Source: the human T2T-CHM13v2.0 reference genome, Homo sapiens
DNA length: 64,000 nt
Assembly: GCF_009914755.1 (NCBI RefSeq)
Contig: NC_060926.1
Reading direction: 5' to 3' (one strand)
The first letter of the stretch is position 1. The number at the start of each line of letters is the position of its first letter. A program made the translations under genes and the position numbers. Below, one piece after another: positions 58,148-61,792 of this stretch. Below the pieces are notes generated by a model. It had not been told where the DNA came from. It saw only the letters and a list, made by a program, of their open reading frames with translations, and made no database searches.

Positions 58148-59374
58148 GGTGCAAATGTGATATAACTTTTATTCAGAAAGGAAACAAAAAGATTTTTTAA
58201 AGTCTGAAAGACAAGGACATTTTACATAATTTTCATTTAAGATAAAATAAAACAAATTGCACAAATTAACCAAATAACACTGATCATACAATACTCTTTA
58301 AAGAAACAATTATGTGCTAAAGTAGCCATATAGATCCTAAAAATATTTCTATTGGGCCTAGTTTACAAGCTCCTGTACATAAGTAATTATAAATAGTTCA
58401 CATCTAGAAAAAATACACATAACCTTTAAAATAGAATTTATCCTTACATATAAACAGTCTTTGTAGAAAAAAAAGGATATTAAAAAGAATTCTTCGTAGC
58501 ACCATTAATTTTATTTTTAAAAGTGAACATTGCAAATAGAAATTTGTTTTCATTTTTAGAGTGCCCAGATTTTAATAAAAAGAGCAAGAAGATAAAAATC
58601 AAATAATATTCAGGATCATAGAGAAGCACTAAGTAAAAGACAATCTAAAGAAATGTCTGGAAGGAAAAACTGGTATTGGGAATAGAATTCGGTCATTTCT
58701 GATACAATGTCACACTCCCAATCAGTGTCCACACTTCAGGACCCTTTTCATTTTTCAGCAGAAGCAGAATGACACTTATTACTATCACCTGAATCTCTGG
58801 CAACGAATCTGAAATTACACTAAAATGAACATTTCCATCAAATTGAGATTTGTGAGATGGAGATGAGGAGGAACCCTCCGATTTTTTGGCAGGCCCTGTT
58901 GTAGGTTTACAGAGTGTACCCACAAACAATTTGAGGACCAGGACAACGAACTTCACAAAAACTTCAGTTGGGATTTTAAAAAATATATATTATCATCAAC
59001 TTCTAAGACTTAGTACATTATTTCAAGAGCATGGCACTGATTCCATTTATTGCTGTCTTTTTTTGCTACAAATATAATTTCTCTTCCAAAAAATTTACAA
59101 CTTCTGTACAAATATTCAAAAAAAGTGCAAAATTAAGGATTCTGTATCATAGATGTGTTTACGCTTAATCCTCTTGAAACACAATAAATGGAGTCTATCT
59201 TTATTGCCCTGTCAGAGAAATAAGCTCTGGTGGGTTGCCTGCTGTGAATTTGACAAGGAAGGCTCTGGTACTGCAATAGTTTATTGTTATCTCTATCAAG
59301 CGGTGCACCCCCCACCCCCCACCCATCATTTCTTAAGCGCTCCAGTCCCAGCTCACTAAGGGAAGAGATGTCCT
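58148..59374 (-). other. NCKAP5: NCKAP5 3' UTR
   Basis: AT-rich, with no recognisable repeats, downstream of the terminal exon stops. Minus-strand AATAAA at 58173-58168. Confidence 0.75.
58168..58173 (-). terminator. Poly(A) signal AATAAA, NCKAP5
   Basis: tttatt on + at the end of the AT-rich UTR. Confidence 0.65.
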
Positions 59375-59656
59375 TTATACATCATTTGAACCTTGACTGG
59401 CACAGGAAGAGAAGCTATCATATAAAGAATCACTCAAAGATTCCAAGTTGTCTACCCCAGGCCTATCTGAACTACTCAAAGATGTCTCTTCATTTTTTTC
59501 TTTTTCTTCCTTCTGTCCTTCAACCTTGTTCAGAGAGTTCTTCTCTTTTTCTAATAAAATCACAGTATTGCTGTTAAATTTATTGAATGACTCTAGGGAA
59601 ATTTTCGATAATCTATTCTCGGGATCGTCTTTTGTTTCTTCAAGTTGTCTCAATTT
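59375..59656 (-). CDS. NCKAP5: Alternative long frame of NCKAP5 last exon (93 aa)
   Basis: Phase-0 reading from the same acceptor is open for 93 codons in AT-rich DNA: KLRQLEETKDDPENRLSKISLESFNKFNSN...LESLSDSLYDSFSSCASQGSNDV*. The tail resembles the recalled NCKAP5L C-terminus. Confidence 0.65.
   Translation of the reverse strand, partial: KLRQLEETKDDPENRLSKISLESFNKFNSNTVILLEKEKNSLNKVEGQKEEKEKNEETSLSSSDRPGVDNLESLSDSLYDSFSSCASQGSNDV
59640..59656 (-). CDS. NCKAP5: NCKAP5 last coding exon, short frame (E)IETT*
   Basis: Strong acceptor ttctaatattttcttctttttattgcAG| at 59658-59657. Phase-1 reading xAA ATT GAG ACA ACT TGA matches the recalled C-terminus of annotated human NCKAP5. Gene order GPR39-LYPD1-NCKAP5 agrees. 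Upstream exons are outside the window. Confidence 0.7.
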
Positions 59657-61792
59657 CTGCAATAAAAAGAAGAAAATATTAGAAACATATTTCTTTGGAA
59701 AATCAAGTTATCCTATCTAATATTCAATTATTGTCTGTATAAAGTACAGTTTAAAGGGACAGAGAAAACCTACAAGTCTTTAATAATCTTCTAGTATAAT
59801 TAGATGTAATAATAAAGCCAATTTTAGGGATAAATCAGGACTTTAATCATTTTACTGAGATAAATAGGTCCCAATTTGCAAATTAAGTGCCACTTAATTT
59901 CATTTTAAATGGATCCATTTGAAATTTGTTCAGGTAAAGTGCCTTATTTTTCTTCATCAAAGTTTCAAACTCCTCTCTTTCCTTGCTAAGTATTAGCTGT
60001 ACTTTTTCTAAATATGAGTAGGTATTGAATTTCAGCCAGAAGTTATGGTAATATGTTTTTTTCTAATAAAAAAAAGACATAAAAATCCCCTAACTTGCCA
60101 TTTTTGAATACATGTTAAGCTTGTTAGAAGCATTGCCATTTTAGTATTTTGTCCCTTTATAGGACTTAAGATATTTGAAAGAGATCTCCAGGTTTTTGGG
60201 TGTAGATCCCAGAAGGCCCAAGGGCTTAAAAATTAAAGCGGCAGGTGAACAGCTGAGTAACCCCTCTGCTCCAGAAGGTCTAGTAATACCAGTTTATACT
60301 GGGATATTACTGTTATTAATACCCTGTATGATGTATAAAGCACTGCACCAAATTCAATAATTATCATAGGTAAACCCTGTAAACATGAATATATTCGGTT
60401 GCTCAGTTGGCTCCTAAGGGCTAAGGTGAGGACAGAGGGAGGCACACTTGCGAAAAACAATGAGAAAAACAGACATGTAAAAGTGTCTACAATATTTCTC
60501 ATCTTCTTTTCCTCTTTCCAGCAGAAATTCCATCCAAACACAGGAAAGAAGCAGGCCCGGGGGCTTGGAGATGATAGTAAGTGTTACCATTTATTAAGCA
60601 TCCACTAGGTAAAAGACACTTAACAGATTCTATCAGCTTTTTCACAAACCTACAAGGTAAACGACCCCATTTTAAAGAGAAGGTATGCAAGGCTCAGAGT
60701 GACAGAGATATTTGCCCAAGGTTGCCCAGCAAGTGGCAGAGAACAGGATTTGAATTTCTGTCTGGCTGCCTTCCATGCTCTTGTTCTTTCCATTAAACCA
60801 TGTTCTTAGGTAATAAAGGACACAATGTCCTGTTTTCCATTTTGTTACCCAAAAATTCCACTTAAATAACTTGCCAAACCGTCTCTAACATGTGCAGTTC
60901 TGCTGTGCACCATGCTCCCCACCCCCAACATTGTTATGCTGGACTCAACAAGGTTGCAATGAGGAAACTGTCTTTTGATTGGGAAAATAGATATAGCCAA
61001 AGCTTATGGATTCTCACATGCTAATGTGAAGAATGGAAAGAGAAGAGAGAGATGGAAGTGGATGGCTTCTGTGTTCCAAGAGCAGACACGGGCAGAATTT
61101 CTCTGCTATAGGAAATGGTATAATTCTATGGGAATATTTGAAAATCATCCTAGATCTAGTGCTTATTTCATTATACTACTAACGTGCAGAAACATTACTC
61201 ACAGAGCTAATTTTCAATCACACACAGCTACCCTGAAACCAGAGGCGGGCTAAGGAACAGACTCCTAGCTGATTACAGAAAAGTGGCTCCATAATTAGAA
61301 ATAACTCCATCCAAGGGCCCCTTTCAACACCATGCCAATTTGCCTACATTTACCAAATGGATGTAAATAAATGGCATTCAATGCAATTTTCTCTTTACCT
61401 GGATGTCTTCTCCATTTTTCTTCATTTAAGAACCACAAGTATTTTTCTTGCCTATTTCTCATCTATGTGGATCTCAAATTCATTCAACACACACTCATTA
61501 GAGAAGCTACTGCAAGGCAGGCTGAAGGCTTTGGTACTGAAGATACACAGCTGAATAAAATTGTGTCCTGCAGGGTGATCATTGAGGCCCTGAGGGCAGA
61601 CAGGCTGAGCTTCGATTTCAGCTTGGCCCTTTCACGGGCTGAGTGCTACAAGCATCCTTCTTCAGGTGTAAAATGGTGATAAGATACATCTTTATTTCAG
61701 GACTGCAATAAGTATTAGAAATAAAGAACTTTAAAGCTCTGGCAGACAGTAGTGGGTGTGCAATAAATGTAAGGCTGGATTCTTATTCTAGA

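What the first reader, a model, noticed from the sequence alone, without database searches (positions are those of the whole stretch)
59375..59660. Dual-frame NCKAP5 last exon hides a 93-aa protein-like C-terminus
Seen: one strong acceptor at 59658-59657 gives (E)IETT* in phase 1. In phase 0 it gives a 93-codon open frame, KLRQLEETKDDPENRLSKISLESFNKFNSN...DNLESLSDSLYDSFSSCASQGSNDV*, which is long for such AT-rich DNA and starts right at the splice site. A second AG at 59639-59638, 19 nt downstream, would also move a phase-1 upstream exon into the long frame (G|AA ACA AAA = ETK). Recalled, not searched: annotated human NCKAP5 ends in EIETT, and the paralogue NCKAP5L/CEP169 ends in a very similar ESLSDSLYDSLSSCGSQG. 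Inference: the long frame is the ancestral C-terminus with a conserved Ser/Asp-rich motif, and splicing switches it on or off. Part of the nominal 3' UTR would then be coding, and variants there misclassified. It may already exist as a predicted or non-human isoform.
Basis: partly seen in the sequence, partly recalled or inferred. Interest (0 to 1): 0.8.

Follow-up and report, generated by a model that had tools for sequence, protein, structure and literature searches.

The report
NCKAP5 last exon, two reading frames
The last exon of human NCKAP5 can be read in two frames, and the long frame, which the reference transcript treats as 3' UTR, encodes the ancient conserved C-terminus that most other vertebrate gene models already annotate.

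Summary
A 93-codon frame opens at the first base of the last NCKAP5 exon (window 59656) and stops at 59377-59375. The same acceptor in phase 1 gives (E)IETT*.

The long frame is real coding sequence. It is the C-terminus of NCKAP5 models in primates, other mammals, marsupials, birds, turtles and crocodilians (75-98% identity over all 93 residues). More distant relatives keep SLSDSLYDSFSSC.SQGSNDV. Human NCKAP5L on chr12 ends in ESLSDSLYDSLSSCGSQG.

It is a 133-nt cassette exon (exon C, chr2:133163990-133164122, outside the window). Exon B ends in phase 0, so B-to-last gives the long tail. B-C-last, or A-to-last, enters in phase 1 and gives EIETT*.

In non-mammals a further segment (D) follows C and keeps the frame. 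I found no D in the human genome. The EIETT ending is therefore probably a mammalian by-product.

I could not see the other 18 human transcripts, nor any human RNA or peptide data. The tail is so widely annotated elsewhere that novelty is low. No paper I could search describes it.

The parts
59657..59680 (-). 3' splice site of the last NCKAP5 exon: pyrimidine tract and AG (59658-59657)
   Evidence: ttcttctttttattgcag directly before 59656. ORF-derived fragments from other species also start ...LLQ|KLKQ, so the acceptor position is shared.
59378..59656 (-). Long frame (phase 0): 93 codons, KLRQLEETKDD...SQGSNDV, with stop TAA at 59377-59375. It is read when exon B is joined directly to 59656. 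Exon B lies OUTSIDE the window at chr2:133167179-133167315 (window 115179-115315), is 137 nt, and runs from phase 1 to phase 0.
   Evidence: translation; 185 proteins at E<=0.01, and the 120 listed cover 94-100% of it at 75-98% identity; it forms their C-terminus, with the junction ...TQ|KLKQ. Exon B ends.
59640..59656 (-). Short frame (phase 1): AA + ATT GAG ACA ACT + TGA = (E)IETT*, the coding part of the selected RefSeq transcript. It is read in two cases. One is inclusion of cassette exon C, which lies OUTSIDE the window at chr2:133163990-133164122 (window 111990-112122), is 133 nt, and runs from phase 0 to phase 1. The other is direct joining of exon A, which lies OUTSIDE the window at chr2:133170100-133170414 (window 118100-118414), is 315 nt, and runs from phase 1 to phase 1.
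   Evidence: and the hub table; 37 orthologous models end in EIET[TSNG] (33 with exon C, 4 with A-to-last). Exon C ends. Exon A ends.
59378..59458 (-). Conserved C-terminal motif block (residues 67-93: GVDNLESLSDSLYDSFSSCASQGSNDV)
   Evidence: invariant S73 L74 S75 D76 S77 L78 Y79 F82 S83 S84 C85 S87 Q88 S90 in 28 sequences; 21 of 34 identical to the NCKAP5L end.
59570..59602 (-). Second conserved block (residues 19-29: ISLESFNKFNS)
   Evidence: [IV]SLESLNK[LF]N is kept in distant relatives.
59638..59639 (-).
   Evidence: it is preceded by purine-rich AAATTGAGACAACTTGA; 0 of 161 proteins show this junction.

Best explanation
The last exon of NCKAP5 is a terminal exon read in two frames, and the frame is set upstream. 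Exon B (137 nt) ends in phase 0. When B is spliced straight to the last exon, translation runs 93 codons through a disordered tail. That tail ends in the family's conserved motif, ESLSDSLYDSFSSCASQGSNDV. When the 133-nt cassette exon C (3n+1) is included, or when exon A is joined directly, the last exon is entered in phase 1 and translation stops after EIETT. This stop lies in the last exon, so nonsense-mediated decay is not expected (inference). The selected human transcript uses the short frame, so 59378-59639 is labelled 3' UTR there. The long tail is the ancestral end of the protein. Non-mammalian vertebrates read A-B-C-D-tail in one frame. Mammals lack segment D, so C alone now shifts the frame. 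Shown here: the frames, the splice-site phases in the human genome, conservation, the paralogue match, and the absence of a recognisable D in human. Inferred: that human cells make the B-to-last junction, that the selected transcript contains exon C rather than A-to-last, and that the tail acts as a short linear docking or phosphorylation motif.
For: Frames and acceptor. Human exon phases read from the genome: A ends TCA G|gtaaaa; B is ttag|GA AAA...ACC CAG|gtgagg, 137 nt; C is ttag|GAC AAG...CCA G|gtaaca, 133 nt. Orthologues with the long tail: one search found 185 proteins at E<=0.01; the 120 listed, from primates to birds, turtles and crocodilians, have 75-98% identity and 94-100% coverage, and all end in the tail. 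A query not biased towards the tail (human exon A) gave 120 listed mammalian representatives: 57 long tail, 33 exon C + EIET[TSNG], 4 A-to-last EIET, 21 exon C with other ends, 5 other. Marmoset shows the expected arithmetic: X1 is 1948 aa (long) and X3 is 1904 aa (C + EIETT), a difference of 44 = 93-44-5. Deep conservation: one search found 28 representatives at E<=0.001 among 1.84 billion; relatives at 45-66% identity keep the motif. One search shows 14 invariant columns, all in residues 73-90. Paralogue: chr12 hit at E 1e-3 genome-wide; that ORF ends ...ESLSDSLYDSLSSCGSQG*; 21 of 34 identical. Non-mammal models read C-D-tail in frame. D is not found in human genome-wide (best E 0.41 on chr7), not in the 52.5-kb intron (only exon C is significant on the gene strand), and not just downstream of C. 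None of the 120 representatives listed (all mammals by source name) is among the 15 proteins that carry the D motif. AlphaFold2 with 28 sequences gives mean pLDDT 56.5 and almost no secondary structure, which fits a linear motif rather than a domain.
Against: I saw no human transcript, junction, Ribo-seq or peptide evidence. The other 18 RefSeq transcripts of the hub table were not visible. No human-named protein appeared among the representatives (clusters at 90% identity hide members). Most orthologue models are automatic predictions (Gnomon, Ensembl) and may copy each other's exon choices. However, independent ORF fragments from unassembled contigs also carry the frame. Open-frame length alone is not significant (119 of 2000). 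Pfam has no model for the tail. Whether the selected transcript is A-B-C-last or A-last cannot be told from the hub's coordinates; both give EIETT. Loss of D in mammals rests on one genome (human) plus the absence of D in predicted proteins. A weak D-like stretch on the gene strand (20-22 bits, E 0.3-1.2, chr2:133131254-133131337) is below a wrong-strand chance hit of 24.6 bits and proves nothing either way.
Confidence: 0.85

Rival explanations
1. The long frame is an ancestral relic in human. It is still open, but only the EIETT frame is translated, because exon C is constitutively included or exon A is joined directly to the last exon.
For: The selected RefSeq transcript uses the short frame (hub table). 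37 of the 63 mammalian representatives without the tail also end in EIET-type sequence. No human expression data were seen.
Against: The human frame is intact, and only 2 of 93 residues differ from macaque and from marmoset. The exon B donor and its phase are intact. 57 of 120 mammalian representatives carry the tail.
Confidence: 0.08
2. The switch is the alternative acceptor AG at 59639-59638, 19 nt downstream. It would move a phase-1 upstream exon into the long frame.
For: The AG exists, and the arithmetic is right: G|AA ACA AAA gives ETK in the long frame.
Against: There is no pyrimidine tract before it; the preceding bases are AAATTGAGACAACTTGA. 0 of 161 tail-bearing proteins begin the tail at ETK; 157 start with the KLKQ-type first residues, and the other 4 are divergent distant sequences. 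No mammalian protein joins exon C to the tail.
Confidence: 0.03
3. The open frame is a chance ORF in AT-rich 3' UTR with no coding meaning.
For: ORFs of this length are not rare. 119 of 2000 shuffles have one, and a 98-codon ORF lies elsewhere in the same UTR.
Against: Conservation at 75-98% identity from human to birds and reptiles, an invariant 14-residue pattern in more distant relatives, and a match to the paralogue's true C-terminus.
Confidence: 0.01

Closest known systems
NCKAP5L / CEP169 C-terminus (human chr12 paralogue)
   Same: It ends in ESLSDSLYDSLSSCGSQG, 16 of 18 positions identical to ESLSDSLYDSFSSCASQG of the NCKAP5 long frame. In both genes the motif lies downstream of the PF15246-type DSGIGTFP exon.
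   Different: NCKAP5L stops at ...SQG, without SNDV. It shows no similarity to residues 1-55 of the NCKAP5 tail. I found no sign of a frame-switching cassette exon there, but I did not study its splicing. The Cep169 paper (PMC4613824, passages read with 'find') maps CDK5RAP2 binding to the N-terminus and EB1 binding to SxIP motifs, and says nothing about the extreme C-terminus.
Predicted NCKAP5 isoforms of other vertebrates (for example marmoset X1/X2/X4/X6, macaque A0A7N9CW67, dog X2, cattle X2, Alligator sinensis X5)
   Same: The same last exon is read in the same long frame, with 75-98% identity over all 93 residues and the same B-to-last junction ...TQ|KLKQ.
   Different: These are non-human and mostly automatic models. 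Human differs at K3R, and at N30H from macaque. Sauropsid full-length forms insert C+D in frame before the tail.
Frame-shifting cassette exons that give alternative C-termini in a shared terminal exon (dual-coding terminal exons; general knowledge, no specific paper consulted)
   Same: A cassette exon whose length is not a multiple of three (133 nt) decides which of two frames of the same terminal exon is translated. The early stop lies in the last exon.
   Different: Here the short frame is only five codons long. This looks like a by-product of losing a neighbouring coding segment (D) rather than a second evolved protein sequence.

Membership tests
NCKAP5/NCKAP5L protein family, C-terminal tail | The same gene carries the family domain (Pfam PF15246, Nck-associated protein 5 C-terminal) upstream of the tail | tested here: met
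   Human exon A (...MRTLDSGIGTFPLPDSG...) retrieves proteins that all carry precomputed PF15246. Exons A, B and C lie upstream on the same strand of chr2.
NCKAP5/NCKAP5L protein family, C-terminal tail | Terminal motif SLSDSLYDS[FL]SSC.SQG | tested here: met
   Present in the window's long frame, invariant in 28 aligned sequences, and present at the end of the NCKAP5L ORF on chr12.
NCKAP5/NCKAP5L protein family, C-terminal tail | An upstream human exon can enter the tail in frame | tested here: met
   Exon B ends ...ACC CAG|gt in phase 0, the same junction as in the orthologue models.
NCKAP5/NCKAP5L protein family, C-terminal tail | Human transcripts or peptides that use this frame | not testable with these tools
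   No RNA-seq, Ribo-seq or proteomics data are at hand. The peptide strings were found in no paper's main text. Supplements were not searched.
Dual-frame (alternatively framed) terminal exon | The same nucleotides are translated in two frames by different splice forms | tested here: met
   Orthologue models of one species use both frames: marmoset X1 (long) and X3 (EIETT). Human exon phases allow both. For human transcripts this is inferred.
Dual-frame (alternatively framed) terminal exon | Both frames are under protein-level constraint | tested here: inconclusive
   The long frame is strongly conserved. The short frame has only 5 codons, fully overlapped by conserved long-frame codons, so its own constraint cannot be separated.
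   Purine-rich context. 0 of 161 tail-bearing proteins show the junction.
Folded C-terminal domain | A confident predicted fold | tested here: not met
   AlphaFold2 with 28 sequences gives mean pLDDT 56.5, pTM 0.16 and one 4-residue helix. No Pfam match. It behaves as a disordered region with a linear motif.

The most novel reading that the evidence does not exclude
Mammals lost a coding segment (D, ...NPMSILDLYQHSLYGHYGEDGPEQLTHYSFIEQLSG...) that in other vertebrates follows exon C and keeps the frame. This turned the 133-nt exon C into a frame switch. As a result, the human reference protein (EIETT end) lacks the most conserved linear motif of the whole NCKAP5/CEP169 family. Only the exon-C-skipping isoform carries that motif. 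The motif is a disordered, Ser/Asp-rich, probably phosphorylation-dependent docking site whose partner is unknown. Work and variant interpretation based on the reference isoform would then miss the ancestral function.
Probability: 0.5. Interest if true: 0.45.

Novelty: already known. Interest (0 to 1): 0.3.

Why it matters
Pipelines that use only the selected transcript call variants in 59378-59639 '3' UTR'. In the long isoform those variants are missense, nonsense or frameshift changes in the most conserved part of the protein. Constructs and antibodies built on the EIETT isoform lack a motif shared with CEP169. That motif is conserved in more distant relatives that are unnamed in the library; one is bonefish. 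NCKAP5 is little studied. In the library I found only Ciona work showing a centrosomal, axon-growth role (bioRxiv 10.1101/2024.01.15.575616, passages read). Pointing to the right isoform and to an untested motif is therefore practically useful, but it is not a conceptual surprise.

Tried and rejected
1. Pfam scan of the 93 residues: 0 families at E<=1.

3. A whole-genome search with the 1942-aa macaque protein failed twice with a machine error. A 249-residue part of the same stored protein worked.

4. I looked for a human-named protein with the tail. None was among the representatives. Clusters cannot be opened, so human annotation stays unseen.

5. I looked for a relic of segment D in human. 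The genome-wide search found nothing (best hits on chr7 and chr20, E 0.41 and 4). Local tblastn of the 52.5-kb intron with 9 non-mammal queries found only exon C. The three-frame reading downstream of exon C showed nothing.

6. Literature: the motif and peptide strings are in 0 papers. 'NCKAP5L'+'FFAT' is in 0 papers. By their listings, none of the papers found for NCKAP5 + isoform + exon (18), NCKAP5 + NCKAP5L + C-terminal (15) or NCKAP5 + microtubule (64, 15 listed) deals with the C-terminal isoforms.

7. I considered from memory that S-L-Y-D-S-F-S in an acidic tract resembles an FFAT-like or beta-TrCP-like (DSxxxS) motif. Neither was tested, and I do not claim either.

8. Structure prediction of the tail gave no fold, so no fold search was run.

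9. No complex prediction was run, because there is no candidate partner.

Full report
**1. The observation**

On the minus strand the window reads ttcttctttttattgcag|AAATTGAGACAACTTGAAGAAACAAAAGAC. The AG at 59658-59657 sits behind a long pyrimidine tract, and the exon starts at 59656.

Read from the first exon base, the frame stays open for 93 codons: KLRQLEETKDD...DNLESLSDSLYDSFSSCASQGSNDV, with TAA at 59377-59375. Entered with one base carried over, the same bases read xAA ATT GAG ACA ACT TGA. That is 17 nt (59656-59640), exactly the coding part the hub table gives for NM_207363.3. The second AG at 59639-59638 is there too. All coordinates in the finding are correct.

**2. Is it more than chance?**

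The open frame by itself is weak evidence.
- The exon has 33% G+C, and the per-codon stop probability is about 0.076.
- 119 of 2000 shuffles of the exon hold some sense ORF of 93 codons or more.
- The real 3' UTR holds another 98-codon ORF.
- The window has 97 stop-to-stop frames of 93 codons or more.
- Only 1 of 2000 shuffles is open for 93 codons from the very first exon base.

Conservation settles the matter.

**3. Conservation**

A search of 5.8 billion proteins for longer proteins holding the 93 residues found 185 at E<=0.01. The 120 listed are all NCKAP5 or unnamed. They come from primates, many other placentals, marsupials, birds, turtles and crocodilians. Identity is 75-98% over 94-100% of the query. 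In every one the match is the C-terminus.

A search of 1.84 billion cluster representatives found 28 at E<=0.001. These include long proteins (1459-2074 aa) at 45-66% identity that still end ...SLSDSLYDSFSSC[AT]SQ[GA]SNDV and keep [IV]SLESLNK[LF]N.

In an alignment of 28 tails, 14 columns are invariant, all between residues 73 and 90.

The human genome itself holds one other match, on chr12 (E 1e-3). The ORF there ends ...GLETSESLSDSLYDSLSSCGSQG*, and 21 of 34 residues are identical. This is the NCKAP5L locus by position and by its DSGIGTFP exon.

**4. What sets the frame**

I mapped the upstream human exons, all of which lie outside the window, with part of a macaque protein and read their ends.
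- Exon A (chr2:133170100-133170414, 315 nt) ends ...CCA GCT TCC TCA G|gtaaaa, in phase 1.
- Exon B (133167179-133167315, 137 nt) runs from phase 1 to ...ACC CAG|gtgagg, in phase 0.

B joined to 59656 therefore gives ...ATGTQ|KLRQLEETKDD, the same junction as in the orthologue models (...TQ|KLKQ).

A search with human exon A, which is not biased towards the tail, listed 120 mammalian representatives. Their endings are as follows:

| Ending | Count of 120 |
|---|---|
| Long tail | 57 |
| Additional segment DKVPRMC...KSAAP followed by EIET[TSNG] | 33 |
| Exon A joined directly to EIETS | 4 |
| The additional segment with other endings (read-through and the like) | 21 |
| Other | 5 |

The additional segment is human exon C (chr2:133163990-133164122). 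It runs ttag|GAC AAG ... CCA G|gtaaca, is 133 nt long, and goes from phase 0 to phase 1.

The three splice forms therefore give:
- A-B-C-last: ...KSAAPEIETT*
- A-B-last: the 93-residue tail
- A-last: ...PKPASSEIETT*

Marmoset models show the expected arithmetic. X1 (long) has 1948 aa and X3 (C + EIETT) has 1904 aa, a difference of 44 = 93-44-5.

The hub's coordinates fit both A-B-C-last and A-last. I infer that the selected transcript is A-B-C-last, because 33 of the 37 EIET-ending models are of that type. One of them, aye-aye 'isoform 1', has 1909 residues. That is the length I recall, from no call, for the human reference protein.

**5.

This AG is preceded by AAATTGAGACAACTTGA, with no pyrimidine tract. 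Of 161 tail-bearing proteins, 157 begin the exon with the KLKQ-type residues that the +19 site would remove. The other 4 are divergent distant sequences. No mammalian protein joins exon C to the tail. This part of the interpretation has no support.

**6. Why the short frame exists**

Alligator, turtle, bird and more distant models read A-B-C-D-tail in a single frame. D is about 63 residues (...NPMSILDLYQHSLYGHYGEDGPEQLTHYSFIEQLSG...IPS) and lies between a C-like segment (DRTLRVCTYSASS...) and KLKQ. Some sauropsid models skip C and D together (P0097, P0109, P0113).

None of the 120 representatives listed (all mammals by source name) is among the 15 proteins that carry D. In human, D is not found by three searches:
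- genome-wide (best E 0.41, on chr7);
- local tblastn of the whole 52.5-kb intron between exon C and the last exon with nine queries. Only exon C is significant on the gene strand. The best D-like stretch there scores 20-22 bits, below a 24.6-bit hit on the wrong strand;
- directly downstream of exon C.

My reading is that C and D together once kept the frame, that mammals lost D, and that C alone now shifts the frame into an early stop. This is an inference from one mammalian genome plus predicted proteins. I cannot tell whether C and D are one exon or two outside mammals.

**7. What the tail is**

Pfam has no model for the tail. AlphaFold2 with the 28-sequence alignment gives mean pLDDT 56.5, pTM 0.16 and a single four-residue helix.

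The tail is therefore most likely a disordered region that carries two short linear motifs. The terminal motif is Ser/Asp-rich, with invariant Tyr, Phe and Cys, and is a good candidate for a phosphorylation-dependent docking site. Its partner is unknown.

The Cep169 paper (PMC4613824, passages read with 'find') places CDK5RAP2 binding at the N-terminus and EB1 binding at SxIP motifs, and does not mention the C-terminal end. An EMBO J paper (PMC12130464, one passage) reports only NCKAP5L phosphosites at Ser440 and Ser767. A Ciona preprint (10.1101/2024.01.15.575616, passages) shows centrosomal localisation and an axon-growth role for the single Ciona orthologue.

No paper in the library holds the motif or the tryptic peptide strings. 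Supplementary tables were not searched, and phosphoproteomic supplements could well hold tail peptides.

**8. Novelty and verdict**

The frame is real coding sequence, and splicing chooses it.

It is not hidden, however. It is the annotated C-terminus in well over a hundred public orthologue models, including macaque and marmoset. The hub counts 19 human transcripts, of which I could see only one, so I expect predicted human isoforms to carry it.

What I could not find in print is any description of:
- the frame switch by the 133-nt exon;
- the absence of segment D in mammals;
- the fact that the selected human isoform lacks the family's most conserved motif.

This is useful for variant annotation and for anyone working on NCKAP5 or CEP169. 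It is an ordinary kind of alternative-splicing outcome. Interest 0.3.

Noticed in passing
window 58693-58989 (-): A second long open frame (98 codons) lies in the sense strand of the NCKAP5 3' UTR. It is AT-rich and low-complexity in look, and I take it for a chance ORF. It shows how weak ORF length alone is in this exon.
   Followed up: no
window 59397-59720 (+) and 59254-59577 (+): Two 107-codon open frames lie antisense to the conserved tail. This is the usual shadow of a coding frame on the opposite strand, and nothing suggests that they are used.
   Followed up: no
window 59318-59336 (-): A G-run (GGGTGGGGGGTGGGGGGTG) lies about 40 nt downstream of the long-frame stop codon, in otherwise AT-rich UTR. 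Its function is unknown.
   Followed up: no
outside the window, chr2:133163936-133163989 (-), just 3' of exon C (locus L009): Read-through of the exon C donor gives GNNQRTCWPCRFLSLGSR* in human. This is identical to the ending of a gelada 'isoform X3' model (P0122). It would be a third possible C-terminus, by intron retention or an alternative poly(A) site.
   Followed up: partly
outside the window, chr2:133131254-133131337 (-) (locus L013): A weak similarity on the gene strand to the non-mammalian segment D (SFM-IKMNKLKGYRHSLYGSLTTSVPSAL against SFMGSPMSILDLYQHSLYGHYGEDGPEQL; 20-22 bits, E 0.3-1.2). It is not significant, but it is the only candidate relic.
   Followed up: partly
proteins P0163, P0164, P0169, P0175 (bat and bovid models): Their endings ...SDSDSDRTMEIMVLELEGAS read the second half of exon C in another frame (compare frame 1). 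This could be an alternative splice site inside exon C or a model artefact.
   Followed up: no
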